From: Squalus acanthias
Lineage: Eukaryota
Assembly: GCA_030390025.1 (NCBI GenBank)
Contig: CM059431.1
Coordinates: 104,720,001 to 104,784,000, forward strand
Length of the DNA stretch: 64,000 nucleotides
Direction: 5' to 3'
A program made the translations under genes and the position numbers. The notes under the pieces were generated by a model. The model ran no database searches, was not told the origin of the DNA, and saw nothing but the letters and a program-made list of their open reading frames with translations. Shown one piece after another: positions 1,853 through 64,000 of this stretch (position 1 is its first letter; each line of letters opens with the position of its first letter).

Positions 1853-2083
1853 ATATACTTTTGACAGTTCTGTACGTACGGACCTGTCAAAAGTATGAAT
1901 GGGGATTCCCTTCTTCCATTGGTTGGGCCGGTCCACGAGATCCCAGGGGCGCCTACGAACCGCTTGCGCCCCTGGGATACGTGGGGCTCTGCCCGCGCGG
2001 ACCCGGAGAGACCCAGGATCGCAAGGTGCCATTCCTCCCGGGCCACCAGGTACTTTCGTAGACATTTTTGCAAATGTTGGCCC
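1853..2083. mobile_element. Harbinger-like MITE family B, one-end fragment
   Basis: Homologous to 20968-21228; ends in the TIR-like aaatgttggccc. Confidence 0.7.
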
Positions 2084-3507: not shown

Positions 3508-3861
3508 TGCTCTTATCGTTTCAACAACATACACAGTTTGGTTTTTAAGTCAGGCTTTAACATCATATCACAATATTTTTGACACCAGCTTGATATACTT
3601 TCGGTGTCTGTGTCGGAAAACAATATTGCAATACTGTGGTGTGGTGTGCTTTTCCTCATTCTTTCTATGTAATGTGCCCTGCACCTCGTTACGACTCTCT
3701 TTCATCCCTATCTTTCTCTAAATTTGAGTGCTGAAGTTTGTAGGTGGATTCGGAAATGATTCATTCATCATAGAATCCTGCAGTTGTCTCCGTTGAATTG
3801 AAGAGGGCTTTCAGACTGAGACCTTAACCAGCATGATAGCGAGGATTAATTATGCGGAGGT

Positions 3862-3985
3862 AAAATCCTGCGGATGCTGGAAATCTGGAATATCAACAGA
3901 AAATGCTGGAAATACTCAGCAGGTCAGGCAGCATCCGTGGAGAGAGAAACAGAGTTAAACGTTTCAGGTCGATGACCTTTCATTC
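3862..3985 (-). mobile_element. Penelope-type pLTR fragment (family 2), hammerhead core decayed
   Basis: Matches 62580-62675 plus 63525-63545. Confidence 0.7.
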
Positions 3986-4210
3986 ATATTAATTATGTGA
4001 AGTTTAGGAAACTAGGCATAGTCTTAAGTGGACATTTTACCATTTTTTTGCCTCGTTAGATAATGGCCCTATTCTGACGTTTGTGGAGGATAAATTATAC
4101 AGAAAGGTGTTCATACCAATGAGGTGGGACGTAATCTTCTTGTCAATCAGAAACACCGGGGGTAATTTTAACCCCCAAAGACTGGTGGGTTTGGGTCGGG
4201 TGGGAAGTGT

Positions 4211-17300: not shown

Positions 17301-17684
17301 GTCCTTGACTTCTCCCTACTCTTGTTTCTGGACAATTATAAAGTGTCGCTTTCTGTCTTGTGAGTAGTTATTATTCTCTCCGATTCCCTTTCACACGCCC
17401 TCCATCATCATCTCTGACCCTAAATGTGAAGTGTTCGTAGATGTCTCTAGGTCATCTGCACAGCTGCCACTTTTCCTCGCCTACCTCCAATCCTCCTTAA
17501 AATGCAGTGCACAACCCCTACATTCTGCAGCTTCTTCCACATCTCCACACTTCAGTTCAGAACGAGTAAATGCTGTTCAGCTCAAATGTGTTAAGGTTGA
17601 TGTACAGGACTCAATCCTTTCTGCCTTGATATTAAGCCCACGTCCTTCTACTCCCAGTCTATTCATACTGCACATGGGTACTAC

Positions 17685-17964
17685 CAGATTAATCAATATG
17701 GGTGTAGTATTATCAGATTAATCAATATGGGTGTAGTATTATCAGATTAATCAATATGGTTGTAGTATTATCAGAATACTCAATATGGGTATAGTATTAT
17801 CAGATTAATCAATATGGGTGTAGTATTATCAGATTAATCAATATGGGTGTAGTATTATCAGATTAATCAATATGGGTGTAGTATTATCAGATTAATCAAT
17901 ATGGGTGTAGTATTATCAGATTAATCAATATGGGTGTAGTATTATCAGATTAATCAATATGGGT
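17685..17964. repeat. 29-bp minisatellite, ~9.6 copies
   Basis: Unit cagattaatcaatatgggtgtagtattat, head to tail, with only a few substitutions. Confidence 0.97.
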
Positions 17965-19139
17965 AGGGGTATTTCAGGCACCTTGTGCCAGCAACAAGTG
18001 CTCCTAAGTCAAGGATAACATCGCCAGTGGAAATATTAGAGTTCTTCCATTCTGCCCTGACAACATGCCTTGATGCAAATCCCAGAAAAGCACCTCCCAC
18101 TGCATCATTGAACACTTTTTCATTGCACACAACCCCCATTCTTGTGGTCTGTCTGAGTGAAATTAATGTTGAATTAGGGTGGATAATCCCGGAGCGAAAG
18201 AGGGAAGATGACTGCAAGCATAGAAAAACAAAATAGGGAATGGAGAAAGTCCAGTTGGGTTCGAGGGGATCCCATCAAGCCCAATCTTTGCGATATACCA
18301 AGCAGAGTTTGCTCCTTATTGGACTGTGCCCTTCTTAGTTCTACTAATCAATCTGATCAGCAGGGCAAACTCCAGACATTGTTTGTGTTGATTATGCAAT
18401 CAGGTTTCCTATTAGACAACTGGCAGTCGCTGAAGTGTGGGTTTAGAATGATTACCAGAATGAGCACACTTGGTCTGTTTCAACACTTCAAGGGTGCTTT
18501 TATTGCAAGGGTGAATCTTGCCAGTCCTGCTGTAAAAGGATGTTGGAGTGATCTAGAAACAAATTTTAAATATTACACAGTATTACATTTTTGTCACAAG
18601 TCCTTTGAGCAAATAGCGAATAATATTAGAGCCTGTTTGATGATTTTAAATTATGTATTCTAAACGCTGTTGCTACATAGGCTTTATTGGGACCTTGTAC
18701 ACGTAACATTTGCATTAGACAGAGCGGAGGCTTGCTTTGATCCTACATTTTAATCAGAAAATTGAAAGACCCTTATGACTTTATCCACTTAGTGCACTCA
18801 CTGGTTATAATTCATTCTCTTTTATTCCTTCCAAGTGATGGATGGTGCCTAACTTAAATCACTAAATTGATATGTACAGACAAAAGAAGAATGCGAGACC
18901 TCAGATCAGATGGTTAACAGGTCCAACAGATGGGAACAGTCGAGTTTATTTTGGACCAACAAGTTGAAATTATGAACTTCAGAGCATAAAATAGTGAATG
19001 AAACCGAAGTTGCATTGACTTATCATTTAAAAAAAGAATAAGGAAAAAAAAAACACATTCTTTTGATCCAAAGCAGTCCAGCTTTGGTAATGCATTATGC
19101 GAATATTCAATATTTCAAGTTAAAATTTCTGAGCATTTA

Positions 19140-20483: not shown

Positions 20484-21228
20484 GGTGCAGAAATTCCGAT
20501 CCCTACGGGTGGGTACGCGCTGTGTACTCACCCGTAGGGACATCGGAAATGTCGGTTTCAGGCGCTGGAAACCGGCATTTCCGACCTGTCAAGAAAGCTC
20601 TTGACAGATCCTCCGGCTGCCCGGGCGAAGGGCCTCTGCGGGGGGAGAGTTCCGTATTTTGGAGACCTTCTGCCCACAGAAAACACTTACAATTCTTGTG
20701 CCTGGTAAAAGCAGGTGTAAGGCCTGCTTTTACCAGGATAAGAGTTGAAAAAAAGTAAAAAAATAAAAAATTTCCACTGATTTATCATTTAAAAATACTT
20801 TAAAGAAAGGTAAGTTTATTTTTAGCCCTGTTAAAAACTTTAATTATTTTTTTCAAAAAATAAAATTTTTGTTTCAAATACTTAATTTATTGTAATTTAA
20901 AGTCATTTTAAAAATGTGATTTTTAAAAAAAATTATTTAAAGTTTTACTATGTTTTGGGGGTGATCTCTATTCATATATTTGACAGGTCTTCCTGTCAAA
21001 TGTATGAAGGGAGATTCCCTTCTCTGATTGGCTCCCCATGGCCCACGTGATCCCAGGGACGCTGCAAACCGCCTGCGCCTCTGGGATACGTGGGCCCTGC
21101 GCACCGGCAGTTTGGAGAGGCCCAGCAGCGGAACTCTGCGCCTCCCGGGAGCCCTCCGGTCTTGGCGCAGATTTTTCCAGATCGCAGCCCTCCGCCCGCG
21201 GGAGGCCTGCGATCGGAATTTCTGGGCC
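20484..21228. mobile_element. Harbinger-like MITE family B (divergent subfamily), inserted in an old CR1 3' end
   Basis: TIR ggtgcagaaattcc/ggaatttctgggcc, TSD ATT; GC-rich arms and AT-rich core. Confidence 0.85.
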
Positions 21229-26404: not shown

Positions 26405-27166
26405 GGCCCAGAAATTGGATTTCGATGGTTGCCGCGGGGGTAAGGATCCCCCGCGATATCGCACTCCGCGCCTGCCTTTATGGTTTCGGCCCACACGAAC
26501 TTCAGTTCCTGGGCCTCTCCCTGGTGCCGGCGCGCAGTGTGTGCGTGTCCCAGAGGCGCAGTTAGTTCGATGCGACCTCTGGGATCACGTGAGCCAGTTA
26601 GAGCCAATGGCAGCACACCATCTTTCATTCATAGTTTTGACAGGAAGAGCTGTCAAAGCTATGAATACAAATTGCCCCCAAAAGAACAGCTAAACCTCAA
26701 TTAAATTAAAAAAAACCATCACATTAATAAAATAACTATAGTTAAATAAATTAACCACTTTAAACAAAAATTTAAATTTTTGAAAAAATTTAAATTCTTT
26801 TTAAAAGTTATAAAAATAAACTTACCTTTCTTTAAAGTCTCTAAAAAAGATAAACATGTTGAAAAAAAATTAAAATAATACTTAATTAACTACTTACCTT
26901 GTTAAAAGGGGGTCTTACGCCTGCTTTTTTCATGTGTAAAATCTTCAACACTTACCTTCGCGTTCAAACCTGAAAAAAAACCTAAGTGTGCTGCGTGCGC
27001 ACAGCCTGTAGTGCGCACGCAGTTCACTTAGGAACCGCCCCCTTCGCAATATCGGAAGTGCCGTTTCCCGCGCATGCGCAGTGCATGCAGGAAACCGGCA
27101 CTTCGGGACCGAATATGGGTGAGTACACAGTGCGTACTCTCCCGTATTCGGACGAATTTCTGGGCC
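26405..27166. mobile_element. Harbinger-like MITE family B
   Basis: Perfect 12-bp TIR ggcccagaaatt/aatttctgggcc, TSD ATC; near-identical to 45759-46524. Confidence 0.92.
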
Positions 27167-31059: not shown

Positions 31060-31690
31060 AAGAAAAAAAAGAACTTGCGTTTATATAGCGTCTTTCACGT
31101 CCTCAGTATGTCCTAAAGCGTTTCGGAGCCCATTCATTACCTGTGAAGCATAAGTAACTGTTGTAATCAATGCTCCCTGTAAGCTGCACTTCGTTCTGCG
31201 CAGCCTGCTTCTTTTAACACGTGGTCCCTTTAAATTTACAATGTAAAAGCCGGTGAGCGGCCTGCGCGGGACCTTTCAGATTACTGCGCAGCCGCGCGCG
31301 CGCGCACCTTAACGGGAACATTGGTTGAAATGTAGGAAAATCTGGCAGACAATTTGCACAGGAATGTCCCTGAAACAGCAATGAGATAAGTAGATGGTTC
31401 ATCGGTTCCGAGAATTGGTGTGTTGAGGGATAAATGTTGATCAGAAGAGGAGAACTCCCTTGCGCCTCTTCAGATCGTACCCTGAGCTATTTCATATCCA
31501 TCTGAGCAGACAGATGGGGCTCTGTTCAAAGTCTCATCTTGTATTCAACAACTCTAACAATACAGAATTCCCTCAGTCATGCACTGAAGTATTGACCTAG
31601 ATTATGTGCTTTACATGCTGGAGCAGGGCTGAAACCACCAACTTTCTGACTCAGAGATGAGAGTCATACCATTGATCCAAGCTGGCGATT
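31060..31690 (-). mobile_element. Old, diverged Deu-domain SINE
   Basis: Degenerate homology to 23700-24181; hosts a hAT MITE. Confidence 0.75.
31168..31323. mobile_element. hAT-like MITE, 156 bp
   Basis: TIR caatgctccctgtaag/cttaacgggaacattg; 8-bp TSD gttgtaat/gttgaaat. Confidence 0.85.
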
Positions 31691-31919
31691 TTCTCCATAA
31701 TTTATTGGCTTAGGCGAGTTTAAGGCTCTTCAGGGATCGCTGGCGCGCTAGGACCACACCTAACTCACATTCTTCATGCGTGAGCACTAAGCGCTGGCAG
31801 GCGTGAAGGCACCACAGCGGAGTCCTAAACGTATCAGCTGATGGCCACGCGCGTGAACTTCTAGTAGTGGTTACTAGATATCAATCAGACTGTTTCTTCC
31901 CTCTTCCTACCTAAGGAGT

Positions 31920-32144
31920 CATGATGCAGAGATGCCGGTGTTGGACTGGGGTGGACAAAAATGAGAAGTCGCACAACACCAGGTTATAGTCCAACAGTTT
32001 TATTTAAAATTCCGAGCTTTCGGAGCTGCTGCTCCTTCGTCAGGTACAGTACCTTTGCCTGAAGAAGGAGCGGAGCTCCGAAAGCTCGTAATTTTAAATA
32101 AAACTGTTGGACTATAACCTGGTGTTGTGCGACTTCTCATTTTT
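31920..32144. mobile_element. Penelope-type inverted pLTR insertion (family 1)
   Basis: ~88-bp inverted arms 31958-32045 / 32058-32144; 12-bp TSD tacctaaggagt; homologous to 61321-61445. Confidence 0.85.
32055..32091 (+). ncRNA. Minimal hammerhead ribozyme motif
   Basis: uugc-CUGAAGA-a-ggagc(gga)gcucc-GAAA-gc-UC-guaa. Confidence 0.7.
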
Positions 32145-32156
32145 TACCTAAGGAGT

Positions 32157-32275
32157 GTGAGGCCAATTGTAGCACTCGTACCACAGCTCTGAACGACATT
32201 AAATAACTCAGCACATCCCTGAGATCAAACCTGCTTGTCTTCCTTGTTTGCGTAGCTCAGTATTGTACTCCATGC
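32157..32275 (-). mobile_element. Possible old tRNA-derived SINE (may continue on the other side of the Penelope insert, ~31740-31919)
   Basis: Minus strand B-box-like ggtttgatctc followed by tgtgctgagtt..gctacaattggcctca; recognised from memory only. Confidence 0.4.
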
Positions 32276-32582
32276 TGAGGGAACAGAGGATCCCCTCTAC
32301 ATTTCATTCTTTATTTTCATGAATGGCTCTGGAATGTATTTCATACACAATGAATTTAAAGTATGCACTTCAGAATGTTTTTCTTCTTACACAGTCTGAT
32401 AGTCTGAAAAATCCTTTGGATGAAACAGTCTTCCATAGACTTGCCCATACATTGTCTGTTATAGGGGTGACATAAAGAAAACCGTGCTTGCCCTGTCAAT
32501 GAGACAAATTGAAACTGGACTAAAGTTCAGCAGTTTGAAGAGTGTCTTTATGTCATGTCACATATGTCAATGTAGAGACGAT

Positions 32583-33279: not shown

Positions 33280-33385
33280 AAATCCTGATGAAAAGTCGAC
33301 AACCGAAATGTTAATTTAAAAAAAAAAAAATCTTTTTCCAGATGCTGAGAGACCTGCTATGTCTTTCTAGCATTTTCTACTTCAT
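33280..33385 (+). mobile_element. Degenerate Penelope-type pLTR (family 2)
   Basis: ctgatgaaaagtcgacaaccgaaatgttaa..ccagatgctgagagacctgct..agcattttct. Confidence 0.55.
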
Positions 33386-34059
33386 GTCTCTCCAGCATAT
33401 CCCCTGGTGCTTTACCCGTTGGACATAATGAAGTTGTCTACTCTGCGTCGTCTGCGGATTCCGCGCATATTAGTATTTCAAAGAAAAGACCGCACAGCCC
33501 CCGAGCAAATTAATTCCTGAGTACAGCTCCAAAGAAGGCCAGTATTGAAAATGAGGATGAATCAGGGCAGTTTTTGTACTGGAACTCTTTTGAAGATACT
33601 GCTAAGTGTAGCCAATTTTTAAAGCACATTTAACCTGCCCATCTAAAGTCGGATTGAACATATAATACAAACATTTTCCTCATTTGACACAGAATCCTTC
33701 CCCCCTGGGTTATTTAGTAATGCCACAGTGAGCAGCAGTGAATGATGTTGACAAGTCTTTTTAAGTTAAAGCACTCCACATAACAAATGAACACATTCCT
33801 GACTGATGTGTTCCCCTGAAACTATCACTTACTGCAATTTAAGCTTCCCATGGTCTTCTGCACTAAGTGGGATGTGGGACGTGCCTGGATGGTGCCAGGT
33901 TACATACGTCTGTCCTTCAGAAAACATTATTGTGGTTGCGGACTTCCTTGTGTTGAGCAGTAGAAACTGAAGGAACGCAATCAGAAGCTCACGATCTCAA
34001 ACTAGTTTAAGAAACAACCACTTTTGACTTACTATTGTTACATTAATTAACCTTACAAC

Positions 34060-36299: not shown

Positions 36300-37043
36300 G
36301 GGCCGAAACTTGATCCCGGGACGCGAGAGTACGCACTGCGTACTCTCGCGTATTCCCACTCCAATTGCCGGTTTTCTGCATGCCCTGCGCATGCGCTGAA
36401 AACCGGCAATTGCTCTTCCGAAAAGGGGGCGGGGCCGGAGTGCATCGCGTGCGCGCTACAGGCTGCGCGCACGCTGTGCACTTCATGCTTTGGACGCGCA
36501 GGTAAGTACTGAAGATTTTGGAAATGTAAAAAGGAGGAGTAAGACCCGCTTTTAAGAAGGTAAGTAGTGAATTAAGTATTTTTTTGAATTTTTTTTTACA
36601 GGTATATCTTTTTTCTGGACTTTAAAGACAGGTAAGTTTATTTTTATAACTTTTTAAAAGATTTTAAATTTTTTCAAAAATTTAATTTTTTATTTAAAAT
36701 GGTTAATTTAATTAACTATACTTATTTTATTAATGTGATGGGTTTTTTTTTAAATTTAATTGAGGTTTAGCTGTTATTTTGGGGGGGTGTAAGATTCATA
36801 AGTCTCTCAGCCATGCTGTGAGACTTATGAATGGAAGATGGTGTGCTGCCATTGGCTCTAACTGAGTCACGTGATCCCACAGCTCGCACGAATTAACTAC
36901 GCCGCTGGGATACGCAAGCCCAGCACAGCTGATGTCTGGAACATCAATTTCGTGCGAGCTGGATCAGAAAAAGCATAAGCGAGGTGAGACATCGCGGGAA
37001 AGGCTTACCCCCGCGGGAACAGAGCGAGATCAATTTCTGGGCC
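36300..37043. mobile_element. Harbinger-like MITE family B (opposite orientation to 26405)
   Basis: TIR gggccgaaactt/aatttctgggcc; flanks aat/att. Confidence 0.85.
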
Positions 37044-42779: not shown

Positions 42780-44115
42780 TTTAGTAATGAGACAGAAGTT
42801 CTAGACAGGCTAAAAGAGCTTAAAGCAAATAAGTCCTTAAGAAAGGGTAATGCTTATCCCTAAATACTAAGATAGACAAGGGAAGAGATTTATGAAGCAT
42901 CACAATTCATTAAGAGGAAGTCAGTAAACACTGGCGGTGTTCTAGTGTACTGGAAACAGGCAAATGTGATGCTTATTCCCAAAAATGATAATCAAACAGA
43001 CTCAGGCAAAGAACGACCCATTTGTCTTACATAAATACTGTATAAAATAATAGAATCAACCATCAGGAAGAAAGGTGAGGATTACCTGCATGATAATAAA
43101 GCAATATCTAATCTAGTTTCAATAGGTAATAGCCTGCTTGACCAACCACCTTGATTAATTTGATGAAATTAGCTGTGCAGATCCTTCTAACAATTGCATC
43201 TAGGGGCTGGATTTTCTCAATGAAGGCGCATTGGGGGTGGGACTGCTGGTTGTCGGGTTTTAGTCCCGCCCCCAATGACGTCCGGCCAACCCATGCTCTT
43301 TTTCCTTGATTGACCTTGTTAAGCCTGCCCTGCGGGCTTAGCGGCCAATTAAGGGAAAGCCGGTGAAAGAGGATATCAGCGTATGACATTTCATCTGTCA
43401 AAAATTTTTGACAGATGAATTGTCAGCATTTGACAGCTTAGAGAAGCTGTCAAACACTGACAATCTCTGTGTTATGGTGAGTCCTTGCACAAAAACTCAC
43501 CAAAACCTCTTTCCTCAGCAGAAATCAGATGGCTGCTGCATCTGAGAATGCAGCAGCCATTCTGTCATCTCTGCCGTTGAGGTGAGGTACCTTCGGATCC
43601 CCAAGGGTTGAAGCCTGCAAGAAGAAACAAAGGTAAGTAAACTTTTTTTAAACTTTACACTCACCTCTCATACTCACCTCTCCACACTTGCACCCATCAC
43701 TCACCTCCACAGCGGACTTTTTGATCCCTCTCACCCCCGCAGACCCACTGCTCGCCTCGCTGACCCTGGCGAGGTTCGCAGTCATCGGGAAGCCCGCACT
43801 TGCAGGGGCAAAATGGGGATAAGCCTCAAAACTGCCTGTTAACAGGCAGTTAATTGGCTGTAATCCCCTTCCAGCCTCGAGGAGATGGGTCCCTGTGTGA
43901 CTCGTGGACCCGCCTCCCGGGAAGATGGCACAGAGACGGGTTGGGAGCGGGTTCGGTACCCGCTCCCAGTTTCTGCCATTTTCCCAGCAGTCCTGCCTCC
44001 ATACCCGCCTCCCCAGGGCTAGCAAAATCCACCCTTGGTGTCTAAAATACATTCAACAAAGTTCCCCATGAAAGTTATTATTTATGCTTAAGGCAGTGAG
44101 ATTCCAGCTAGAACT
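42780..44115 (+). mobile_element. Ancient CR1 RT remnant split by a MITE
   Basis: EVLDRLKELKANKS..W KQANVMLIPK..RPICLT*ILYKIIES; resumes after 44034 with a FNKVPHE-like stretch. Confidence 0.7.
43204..44034. mobile_element. Harbinger-like MITE family D
   Basis: TIR gggctggatttt/aaaatccaccc; flanks tag/ttg; reverse-complement homology to 62678-63521. Confidence 0.8.
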
Positions 44116-45758: not shown

Positions 45759-46524
45759 GGCCCAGAAATTAGACTTCGATGGTTGCCGCGGGGGTAAGGA
45801 TCCGGCGCGATCTTACCTACCGCGCCTGCCTTTATGGTTTTGGCCCACACAAACTTCTGGTCCTGGGCCTCTCCCTGGTGCCGGCGTGCAGTGTGTGCGT
45901 GTCCCAGAGGCGCAGTTAGTTTGATGCGACCTCTGGGATCACGTGGGCCAGTTAGAGCCAATGGCAGCACACCATCTTTCATTCATAGTTTAGACAGGAA
46001 GAGCTGTCAAAACTATGAATACAACTTGCCCCCAAAAGAACAGCTAAACCTCAATTAAATTAAAAAAAAAAACCATCACATTAATAAAATAACTATAGTT
46101 AAATAAATTAACCACTTTAAACAAAAATTTAAATTTTTGAAAAAATTTAAATTCTTTTTAAAAGTTATAAAAATAAACTTACCTTTCTTTAAAGTCTCTA
46201 AAAAAGATAAACCTGTTGAAAATTTTTTAAAATAATACTTAATTAACTACTTACCTTGGTAAAAGGGGGTCTTACGCCTCCTTTTTTCATGTGTAAAATC
46301 TTCAATACTTACCCTCGCGTTCAAACCTGAAAAAAAACCTAAGTGTGCTGCGTGCGCACAGCCTGTAGTGCGCACGCGGTTCACTTAGGAACCGCCCCCT
46401 TCGCAATATCGGAAGTGCCGGTTTCCCGCGCATGCGCAGTGCATGCAGGAAACCGACTCTTCGGGACCGAACATGGGTGAGTACACAGTGCGTACTCTCC
46501 CGTATTCGGCCGAATTTCTGGGCC
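45759..46524. mobile_element. Harbinger-like MITE family B
   Basis: Perfect TIR ggcccagaaatt; flanks aat/att. Confidence 0.92.
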
Positions 46525-61261: not shown

Positions 61262-61320
61262 CAATCAGCTGTCAGGCCTCTTAAATTATAATTCAATCAA
61301 CTTCCCCTCTCAGTTTTTAA

Positions 61321-61730
61321 CATAGATGTGGAGATGCCGGTGTTGGACTCGGGTGGACAAATGTGAGAAGTCGCACAACACCAGGTTATAGTCCAACAGT
61401 TTTATTTGAAATCACAAGCTTTCGGAGCGCTGCTCCTTCGTCAGGTGAAGTGAAGAGATGCATATAGGCACAGCATATATAGTCAGAGAACACTGCCAGA
61501 TGATTACAGTTAATCTTTCTAACTGCCCTTTATCACACCTCGGCGGAGAGATAATCACGGCAATCAAAGGTGTGGATGGTGTCCAAACAGGTCAGTCAGG
61601 AAAACATTACATCAAAGACAATGAGGTGGGGTCACAAGGGGTCAAATGTGGCAGATGCTGGTGTCTGTATGGAAAACAAAACATAGTTTAAACTTGAATT
61701 GGTTCCACACAAACAATCAGGTTCGGGTTA
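61321..61730 (-). mobile_element. Penelope-type element 3' fragment/pLTR (family 1)
   Basis: 61321-61445 homologous to 31920-32045; right boundary uncertain. Confidence 0.75.
61412..61448 (-). ncRNA. Minimal hammerhead ribozyme motif
   Basis: Minus strand ucac-CUGACGA-a-ggagc(agc)gcucc-GAAA-gc-UU-guga; stems I and II fully paired. Confidence 0.75.
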
Positions 61731-62400: not shown

Positions 62401-62677
62401 ACCACACCTCACACAGCAACTTTTCTGACTTATTAACGGTTAAGGCAGTAAGCAAACCTGAAGAGCAAAATGATATATGGCATGTTAAAAGGCAAGACCT
62501 CCATTGAGAGCACCTACTCTTTGAATGTGAGCCTAAAGATTTGGACCACTTCCAAAGATTTTACACCTACTACAAAAGCAAAATACTGCGGATGCTGGAA
62601 ATCTGAAATAAAAACAGAAAATGCTGGAAATACTCAGCAGGTCAGGCAGCTTCTGTAGCGAAAGAAAAAGAGTTATA

Positions 62678-63521
62678 GGGCTGGATTTTCCAAGCCCCGA
62701 GGAGGCGGGCATGGAGGCGGGACAGCCGGTAAATTAGCAGAAAGTGGGGGCGGATGGCAAACCCGCTCCCATCTCGCCTCCGTGCCCTTTTGCCAGGAGG
62801 TGGGAAGATGTGCTGCTTTGGGTCCCGTCTCCTGGAGACGGGAAAGGCATTTAATACTTTTAACTGCCTGTTAACAGGTAGTTAACAGGCAGAAAAAAGG
62901 ATTAGTGCCATTTTACCTTCACAGGTGAAGGCTTCCCGACCTCGGAGAACCTCGCCGGGTTAGAGGAGACGTGGAGGAGGTCTGCGGCGGTCGGAGGCAC
63001 CTGGAAGTAAGATGTAGAGGTGAGTGATGGGTGCAAGTGTGGAGTGGTAAGTATGTAAGGTGAGTGATAAGTTTTAAAAATGTTCACTTACCTTGTTTTC
63101 TTCCTACAGCCTTAGCCGCGGTGGATCGGGAGAGCCGACATCTTCCTTGTCAATTTCACAGACTGGCTGTTGGAACCTCCGAACCAACAGCCATGTGAAA
63201 TTTACAAAGTTGAAAGGTTTGATGAGTCCTGAACACAGGGACTCAACAAACTAAAGAGAATGTCAGTGTTTGATAGCTTCACAGAGCTGTCAAACGCTGA
63301 CATTTCTTCTTTCAAGAAGTCTTGATAGATAGCACGTCTGACGTTGACGTGCTCTGTCAGTGACTTCCTCCCTAATTGGCCTGCTGAGCCCGCAGGGCGG
63401 GTTGAACAAGCTCAATCAGGGGAAAATCCCTCTGGTTGGTCAGGCGAGGATGGAGGCGGAAAATTGACACGACAAGCAGCAGTCCCGCCTCCAACTTGTC
63501 TCCATTCACAAAATCCGGCCC
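62678..63521. mobile_element. Harbinger-like MITE family D
   Basis: TIR gggctggatttt/aaaatccggccc; flanks ata/att. Confidence 0.85.
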
Positions 63522-63608
63522 ATTGTTTCAGGTCGATGACCCTTCGTCAGAACGACTGAATTATTCTGGATAACTGCTGATATTAATTTTGCTTCCCTAT
63601 TATATCCA

Positions 63609-63643
63609 TTTCTGACGAAGGGTCATCGACTTGAAACGCTAAC
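63609..63643 (+). ncRNA. Minimal hammerhead motif, probably inactivated
   Basis: uu-CUGACGA-a-ggguc(auc)gacuu-GAAA-cg-CU-aac; the conserved U before the cleavage nucleotide is C here. Confidence 0.55.
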
Positions 63644-64000
63644 TCTGTTTCTCTCTCTACAGATGCTGCCTGACCTGCTGAGTATTTCCAGCATTTTCTG
63701 TTTTTATTTTACACCTACTGCTCGCTTTCAAGAATCCCACTTTGAGACAGTTAATCCAGCTGACTGTGCTCCTTGTACATTGGTGCCGATCTAGATTTTG
63801 TCCTCCAGCACTTCTCTGGAGCTTGAGGGCAAAACCAACAGCTTGCTTCAACTCTGTCGGGATTCTTTGATTATTGACTTTTTAAAAAGTATCTTATGAA
63901 TTATGATTGAGTCTGACAATTTTTTTTCTCTGTATTTTTAGTTGCTTCCTGAATACATTTAGTTTGAAATCCGGAATGCCGATAATGTAACTGTGGAAAC

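What the first reader, a model, noticed from the sequence alone, without database searches (positions are those of the whole stretch)
31908..32156. 225-bp palindromic Penelope-type insertion carrying two back-to-back hammerhead ribozymes
Seen: 12-bp TSD tacctaaggagt and ~88-bp inverted arms separated by ~12 nt. Each arm begins with CUGANGA-stem II-GAAA-GC-UC pointing outward, and the plus-strand copy keeps a 4-bp stem I. There is no coding sequence. Established: Penelope-like elements carry minimal hammerheads in pLTRs, lack a real stem III (dimeric folding through the AGCU palindrome) and often show inverted pLTRs. Inference: either an extreme truncation product or a tiny non-autonomous ribozyme retroelement. 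A host transcript from either strand would contain a ribozyme or form a long dsRNA hairpin.
Basis: partly seen in the sequence, partly recalled or inferred. Interest (0 to 1): 0.7.

Follow-up and report, generated by a model that had tools for sequence, protein, structure and literature searches.

The report
Fold-back stump of Penelope-like retroelement
This is a real, short leftover of a very abundant jumping gene, laid down as two head-to-head copies of its ribozyme-bearing end, an arrangement already described for this class of element and so largely ordinary.

Summary
The insertion is real: 225 bp between exact 12-bp duplications, with a minimal hammerhead motif on each strand. Two corrections. 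First, 37 bp at the left end are a single-copy 'tail' outside the palindrome. Second, the arms align to a self-complementary 4-bp centre, so there is no true spacer. Tail + pseudo-LTR end + inverted tail-less copy + TSD is the published signature of Penelope-like elements, and opposite-strand hammerhead pairs were reported in 2014. A second, unrelated family in this window has the same build. In public contigs most family copies continue past the hammerhead like an uninverted copy at 61.4 kb, and 19 distinct fold-back joints are listed. This favours an inversion built anew at each insertion. One ~90%-identical contig has a similar centre, so a small lineage copied as a unit is not excluded. 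The tail-side hammerhead has a broken stem I, and a read-through RNA is predicted to fold into a -158 kcal/mol hairpin that blocks the other. No genome was held for a copy count. The scan noted this pattern before, in this genome and two others.

The parts
31908..31919 (.). Left target-site duplication, 12 bp
   Evidence: Exact match to 32145-32156; 2 occurrences in the window
31920..31956 (-). 37-bp 'tail', present on one side only
   Evidence: Outside the inverted arms; shared with the copy at 61325-61446; other family contigs have loose ends at both 31920-31921 and 31952-31962
31957..32050 (-). Tail-side arm: 5'-truncated pseudo-LTR end, with an AATAAA hexamer downstream of the hammerhead
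   Evidence: 92% identical over 123 bp (with tail) to 61325-61446; arm alignment; hexamer
32010..32047 (-). Minimal type I hammerhead motif, core starting at 32043; predicted cut 32014|32013; stem I broken (2 of first 4 pairs)
   Evidence: does not fold as a hammerhead on its own
32049..32052 (.). Self-complementary 4-mer at the centre where the two arms meet head to head
32051..32144 (+). Inverted, tail-less arm, ending where the tail begins on the other arm
32055..32091 (+). Minimal type I hammerhead motif, core starting at 32059; 4-bp stem I, 5-bp stem II, no stem III, palindromic 15.1-16.1 tetramer; predicted cut 32087|32088
   Evidence: the isolated 42-nt piece folds into stems I and II at -9.2 kcal/mol
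32145..32156 (.). Right target-site duplication, 12 bp
61325..61446 (-). Comparison: uninverted copy of the same family with tail and an intact hammerhead motif; continues 5' into further sequence (possible 7-bp TSD at 61319 and 61680, weak)
62558..63719 (.). Comparison: second, unrelated hammerhead-bearing family with the same TSD-tail-arm-arm-TSD build; 14-bp TSD, interrupted by a later ~843-bp insertion

Best explanation
An ordinary, extremely truncated insertion of a high-copy Penelope-like retroelement (PLE). Shown here: tail + pseudo-LTR end on the minus strand, an inverted tail-less copy joined head to head, a 12-bp TSD, and two hammerhead motifs. Inferred mechanism, from the Anolis PAc work: the element's endonuclease nicked both strands 12 bp apart. 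Each 3' end primed reverse transcription on element RNA, one at the outer start site (copy with tail) and one at the inner start site (copy without tail). Both syntheses stopped about 7-8 nt upstream of the hammerhead core, and the two cDNA ends were joined, probably through the self-complementary 4-mer. Fold-back self-priming, as proposed for rotifer PLEs, would give the same product. The hammerheads are passengers copied from uncleaved RNA. The insertion encodes nothing and is probably inert as a ribozyme.
For: The layout matches published PLE insertions: inverted 5'-truncated copy plus a 30-40 bp tail at one end (PMC8557442); 31-bp tail, inverted pLTR, 8-10 bp TSD and palindromes at the junction (PMC3846280); tail = stretch between two RT start sites, both strands cut and extended, hammerhead cleavage not needed in vitro (PMC11167929); dual minimal hammerheads on opposite strands ~100-700 bp apart (PMC4209133). 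The tail ends 116 nt from the start of stem II; in PAc the ORF starts at stem II and RT starts 111-118 nt in. The same family occurs uninverted at 61.4 kb. A second family with no significant similarity (best E 1.0) has the same build with a 14-bp TSD and a different, ~57-bp centre. In 3 of 4 runs laid, the listed loose ends at 32045 read like the 61446+ continuation; 20 listed arm-to-arm joints collapse to 19 distinct ones. Summed contig depth is over 10^6 on the outer arms in X1 and X3 against 9.5-27.5 on the flanks, and about 2,250 at position 32048 (not a copy number).
Against: No PLE open reading frame was found in the window, so the parent element was not identified here. One contig of run X7 spans 32013-32113, centre included, with 8 other letters and 2 gaps. 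All 7 arm-to-arm differences lie in the inner 40 of 95 columns (p about 0.002, tested after seeing the pattern; 0.016 if the innermost 8 columns are dropped), which uniform ageing of two identical arms does not predict. Depth at 32048 is still about 240 times the flank in X1. The joints come from short contigs (21-28 letters on the shorter side), only 15 of 63 rows were shown, and several lie next to variable positions where alignments may be clipped.
Confidence: 0.75

Rival explanations
1. A small non-autonomous lineage. A master copy with this head-to-head centre is transcribed and mobilised in trans by PLE proteins. The inner ~40+40 nt imperfect palindrome is inherited, and the outer arms are regenerated by fold-back synthesis at each insertion.
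For: X7 contig 29 crosses the centre at about 90% identity; within 32045-32057 the tables list only one inserted base and one substitution for that run. Other contigs reach 32047 from the left or 32049-32052 from the right. Depth at 32048 is about 2,250 in X1 and X3. Arm differences are confined to the inner 40 columns and the outer 55 are identical. Rotifer PLE pLTRs carry 18- and 38-bp palindromes at their 5' ends, and pLTRs suffice for mobilisation in trans (PMC3846280).
Against: One contig only, whose letters were not shown; a mismatch is listed only at 3% of depth, so its centre need not be identical. A subfamily with this upstream sequence could converge on the self-complementary 4-mer: another joint sits at a self-complementary hexamer with depth 114-166. 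Centre depth is under 0.1% of arm depth and may include unclipped contig ends.
Confidence: 0.17
2. Post-insertion origin of the palindrome or of its asymmetry: a single-arm insertion was duplicated by fold-back repair, or the arms were homogenised by gene conversion while the hairpin tip mutated faster.
For: Differences cluster near the centre; both arms carry letters that differ from the family majority (32012 on the left, 32057 on the right).
Against: The inverted arm ends exactly at the tail boundary and one TSD encloses both arms, in two independent families, which points to the insertion reaction. It may still explain the inner-arm gradient.
Confidence: 0.06
3. Assembly artefact: an inverted repeat produced by chimeric reads or mis-assembly.
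For: Long palindromes are a known long-read artefact (own knowledge); no listed DNA-run contig spans the centre.
Against: The arms differ at 7 columns and a clean TSD is present. In 2 of 2 DNA runs of organism A (samples S1, S2), contigs at flank-level depth run from each flank 20-29 letters into the element, in the orientation the window shows (below the tool's 31-letter rule for bridging).
Confidence: 0.02

Closest known systems
Complex insertions of endonuclease-bearing Penelope-like elements (Pen2a/Pen2/Pen3a of Adineta vaga, PMC3846280; general scheme in PMC8557442)
   Same: Head-to-head inverted pseudo-LTR, optional 30-40 bp tail on one end, short TSD, palindrome at the junction.
   Different: No ORF or body: only ~94 bp of pseudo-LTR per arm remain. 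TSD is 12 bp against 8-10 bp in the rotifer examples.
PAc, Poseidon-type PLE of Anolis carolinensis (PMC11167929)
   Same: Hammerhead followed by a tail at a similar distance (116 nt from stem II to the tail end); two usable end points.
   Different: No start codon at stem II and no open frame through arm and tail here; sequence relationship not tested.
Minimal hammerheads (min-HHR) of metazoan PLEs (PMC4209133)
   Same: Type I core, extra base after position 9, G10.1-C11.1, 4-bp helix I, no helix III, palindromic 15.2-16.2; opposite-strand pairs already noted.
   Different: Helix II is 5 bp (7-8 bp in the Schistosoma families); the two cores are 16 bp apart, closer than the ~100-700 bp reported; one stem I is broken.
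Non-LTR retrozymes (bioRxiv 10.64898/2026.07.22.740005)
   Same: Short, non-coding, type I hammerhead, related to PLE pLTRs.
   Different: Retrozymes are head-to-tail tandem units with two same-strand ribozymes; this is head-to-head with one sense ribozyme per strand.

Membership tests
Penelope-like element (EN+) insertion | ORF with telomerase-like RT and GIY-YIG endonuclease | tested here: not met
   No ORF in the insert; no GIY-YIG Pfam hit in 237 of 237 frames scanned. The insert is filed as a fragment that works like a PLE end, not as an autonomous member.
Penelope-like element (EN+) insertion | Link of this terminal sequence to a PLE ORF, and RT phylogeny | not testable with these tools
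No genome held; 4 collection scans gave 0 matches.
Penelope-like element (EN+) insertion | 30-40 bp tail on one end only | tested here: met
   37 bp, 31920-31956; ~38 bp in the second family
Penelope-like element (EN+) insertion | Inverted 5'-truncated copy joined head to head, with a short TSD around the whole | tested here: met
   12-bp TSD
Penelope-like element (EN+) insertion | Empty target site with one copy of the TSD | tested here: inconclusive
   No such joint among the 15 of 63 rows shown; organism B's contig begins at 32155
Minimal type I hammerhead (min-HHR) | Core CUGANGA, extra base, G-C closed helix II, GAAA, palindromic 15.2-16.2, UH | tested here: met
   Both arms and the 61.4-kb copy
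Minimal type I hammerhead (min-HHR) | Helix I of 4-5 bp (plus arm) | tested here: met
   4 pairs, one G-U; the third pair is U-A here and C-G in the 61.4-kb copy, a change on both sides
Minimal type I hammerhead (min-HHR) | Helix I of 4-5 bp (minus arm) | tested here: not met
   2 of the first 4 pairs
Minimal type I hammerhead (min-HHR) | Self-cleavage as a dimer | not testable with these tools
   Bench assay needed. Rfam models gave no hammerhead hit; a two-strand fold of the plus motif gave a competing stem II duplex, not the dimer ribozyme.
Non-LTR retrozyme | Two or more head-to-tail units, each with a complete hammerhead | tested here: not met
   Arms are inverted; one sense hammerhead per strand
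Non-autonomous element amplified as a unit | Many dispersed copies with the same ends, centre and arm asymmetries | tested here: inconclusive
   19 other joints listed against one contig with a similar centre; no genome for a census

The most novel reading that the evidence does not exclude
A minority lineage of ~225-bp self-contained hairpin mini-elements: a fixed anti-hammerhead/hammerhead core inherited from one master, mobilised in trans by PLE proteins, with the outer arms rebuilt by fold-back synthesis at each landing. This would be a MITE-like, head-to-head counterpart of retrozymes, and its inherited-versus-fresh arm boundary (which falls at the predicted cleavage site) would record how PLE inversions are made.
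Probability: 0.15. Interest if true: 0.5.

Novelty: new member of a known kind. Interest (0 to 1): 0.18.

Why it matters
As it stands, little: it is a clean, very small example of a described PLE insertion signature. Its value is as material. How PLEs make inverted copies (twin priming on both nicked strands versus self-priming) is still open in the papers read, and whether their hammerheads cut in vivo is unsettled. A genome with this many stumps allows both to be tested by counting where arms start relative to the cleavage site and whether the two arms come from one template or two.

Tried and rejected
No whole genome was held, so the genome-wide junction count could not be run. Pattern scans for other copies found nothing: metagenome contigs twice, viral contigs, prokaryote genomes; these collections are not expected to hold vertebrate DNA, so the blanks say nothing. 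Rfam: no hammerhead family; the mir-1597 hit (39.8 bits, gathering 93) reflects the long hairpin only and was rejected. Expression: no RNA holder listed; the guessed-RNA run X7 had no cover over most of the flanks; neither is evidence. Host gene: 237 of 237 stop-to-stop frames (48 aa or more, at least 120 bp outside self-repeats) gave only 3 RT fragment hits and 3 below-cutoff hits; short exons would be missed. A guess that the insertion is absent from other individuals was dropped: both junction regions appear in X1 and X3, and 4-5 flank differences alone would explain the 0.77-0.80 word share. The clustering of arm starts just after the predicted cut (9 of 19 joints with an arm starting at +1 to +10) is kept as a lead only, because of clipping and selective listing. 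The 2016 dimer-cleavage paper (PMC5785218) was not held. A sequence look-up of earlier notes and a look-up near this place returned nothing.

Full report
OBSERVATION. An exact 12-bp repeat flanks a 225-bp insert and occurs only these two times in the window; chance is about 7e-8 at a fixed place and 3e-5 with 400 boundary choices. The plus strand folds at -157.9 kcal/mol (z -20.7; 0 of 200 shuffles as stable) and the minus strand at -144.9. Hammerhead cores start at 32059 (+) and 32043 (-), each with an extra base after position 9, a 5-bp stem II, GAAA, GC and UC. Three corrections follow. The first 37 bp (31920-31956) are not part of the palindrome. The arms align all the way to the centre 32050|32051, a self-complementary 4-mer, with 7 differences in 95 columns, so there is no foreign spacer. 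Only the plus motif has a full stem I (4 pairs, one G-U); the minus motif keeps 2 of the first 4. Rfam found no hammerhead family at E up to 10.

SURROUNDINGS. The window is at least 51% self-repeated. Of 237 stop-to-stop frames scanned against Pfam, 3 hit the RT family (2 above its cut-off) and 3 gave below-cutoff hits to other families; none hit GIY-YIG. The host is probably a shark; that label comes from recall and from earlier AI notes, not from a test. The same family occurs once more in the window, at 61325-61446, 92% identical over tail and arm. That copy is not inverted and continues upstream of its hammerhead into other sequence. Its stem I has C-G where the plus arm has U-A, a change on both sides that supports the helix. 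A second family, without significant similarity to the first (best E 1.0), has the same build at 62558-63719: 14-bp TSD, ~38-bp tail on one side, outward-pointing cores, a different centre of ~57 bp, and a later ~843-bp insertion in one arm. Single-arm copies of that family lie at 3855-3987 and 2080-2155. So inverted and uninverted forms coexist in two families within 64 kb.

OTHER COPIES. No genome was held. Four of the 24 listed runs were laid on 31680-32480, all as contigs. In X1 and X3 (organism A, two samples, DNA by guess), contigs at flank-level depth (9.5-27.5) run from each flank 20-29 letters into the element. That is below the tool's 31-letter rule for bridging but agrees with the window on both sides. 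No empty-site joint is among the 15 of 63 rows shown. Summed depth is above 10^6 on the outer arms in X1 and X3; this is no copy number but marks a very abundant family. In X1, X3 and X6 the listed loose ends at 32045 (17, 7 and 7 contigs) begin like the continuation of the 61.4-kb copy; none was listed there for X7. I took the 15 joints of table 5 and 5 further ones from the 12 rows of table 5c, dropping 6 duplicates and 1 backward joint. These 20 give 19 distinct arm-to-arm joints after collapsing mirror images. One sits on a self-complementary hexamer with depth 114-166, so joints can recur at such words. Caveats: the shorter side is 21-28 letters, the list is selective, some joints lie beside variable positions, and joints like the window's own cannot appear as skips.

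AGAINST THE SIMPLE READING. Contig 29 of X7 (115 letters, depth 5.5) spans 32013-32113 with 8 other letters and 2 gaps; within 32045-32057 the tables list for that run only one inserted base and one substitution. Its letters were not shown, and a mismatch under 3% of local depth is not listed, so I cannot say its centre is identical. Other contigs reach 32047 from the left and 32049-32052 from the right, which suggests a subfamily with this upstream sequence. Depth at 32048 is 2243 in X1 and 2256 in X3: under 0.1% of arm depth, yet about 240 times the X1 flank, and possibly inflated by overlapping and unclipped contigs. The 7 arm differences all fall in the inner 40 columns (p 0.002, post hoc; 0.016 without the innermost 8 columns). 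This fits two template RNAs, a mutable hairpin tip, or an inherited core with freshly made outer arms. I could not separate these.

HOW IT MOST LIKELY WORKS. Shown: the anatomy above. From the literature: PAc cuts and extends both target strands, starts reverse transcription at two sites inside its RNA that delimit the tail, and does not need hammerhead cleavage in vitro (PMC11167929). Inferred: staggered nicks 12 bp apart each primed a copy, one from the outer and one from the inner start site. Both stopped just upstream of the hammerhead core and were joined at the self-complementary centre; gap filling made the TSD. The tail ends 116 nt from the start of stem II, close to the 111-118 nt of PAc. 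Self-priming, proposed from rotifer PLEs (PMC3846280), would give the same product. As RNA, the locus is predicted to be a hairpin rather than a ribozyme: the pair probabilities of the plus motif's stems I and II are 0.000 in read-through RNA, under 0.01 for the arm alone, and 0.10-0.16 for a 50-nt piece. Each strand has one sense hammerhead, so the two cannot form the cis dimer such motifs are reported to need (PMC4209133; PMC6765202). These are equilibrium predictions without tertiary contacts or protein; PAc's hammerhead cut only when protein was present.

COMPARISON WITH WHAT IS KNOWN. The build is in print: an inverted 5'-truncated copy with a 30-40 bp tail at one end (PMC8557442); an inverted pLTR, 31-bp tail, 8-10 bp TSD and junction palindromes (PMC3846280); dual minimal hammerheads on opposite strands ~100-700 bp apart (PMC4209133). 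It works like a PLE end. It fails the ORF test for an autonomous PLE, its link to a parent ORF was not testable, and it fails the tandem test for a retrozyme (bioRxiv 10.64898/2026.07.22.740005). What I saw of each paper: PMC11167929, parts 1-2 of 4; PMC4209133, parts 1-2 of 4; PMC3846280, 11 passages and the Discussion; PMC8557442, 12 of 19 passages; PMC6765202, 7 passages; the bioRxiv preprint, part 1 of 5; PMC5785218, only as cited in PMC6765202. No supplements were read; those of PMC4209133 and the preprint may list this family. Five literature searches showed no paper on this family or on unit-amplified hairpin PLE derivatives; Repbase and Dfam could not be searched. Earlier notes of this scan describe the same pattern in this genome (e1-7790103) and two others (e1-7858806, e1-7789271). 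They are unchecked and are not counted as support; e1-7858806 led me to PMC3846280.

VERDICT. Real, tidy and of a known kind: a fold-back stump of a Penelope-like element (confidence 0.75). A small lineage amplified as a unit remains possible (about 0.15-0.17) and is best tested by shared arm asymmetries, not by a shared centre alone. Novelty: new member of a known kind. Interest 0.18.

Noticed in passing
window 62558-63719: A second hammerhead-bearing family shows the same build: 14-bp TSD (62558-62571, 63706-63719), ~38-bp tail, outward-pointing cores at 63550 (-) and 63612 (+), and a ~57-bp centre that is mostly not palindromic.
   Followed up: yes
window 62679-63521 (relative at 43204-44034, 71% identical): An ~843-bp element with short terminal inverted repeats splits the tail-side arm of that second element right at its hammerhead's cleavage region; no clean TSD of its own. 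It fits the unchecked note e1-7805368 on a Harbinger hot spot; the Harbinger label is from that note and recall.
   Followed up: partly
window 3855-3987, 2080-2155, 33285-33400: Single-arm ends of the second family (10-bp TSD at 3845 and 3988; none found for 2080) and a more distant hammerhead-bearing end at 33285.
   Followed up: partly
window 32001-32011 and 32088-32097 (joints): In 13 of 19 distinct listed joints both arms start 3' of the predicted cleavage site, and in 9 of 19 one arm starts within 10 nt of it. This could reflect RNA 5' ends made by self-cleavage, or clipping at variable positions.
   Followed up: partly
window 31957-32144: All 7 arm-to-arm differences lie in the inner 40 of 95 columns; the outer 55 are identical and the boundary is 2 nt past the predicted cut. 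Unexplained.
   Followed up: partly
window 17678-17965: Tandem array of a ~29-bp unit (from the 12-mer spacing).
   Followed up: no
window 1855-1896, 20494-21015, 26757-27151, 36321-36832, 43384-43464, 46114-46165: Many short internal palindromes within repeats that look like non-autonomous DNA transposons.
   Followed up: no
whole window: At least 51% of the window is self-repeated, mostly LINE-like RT fragments; no host exon was recognised.
   Followed up: partly
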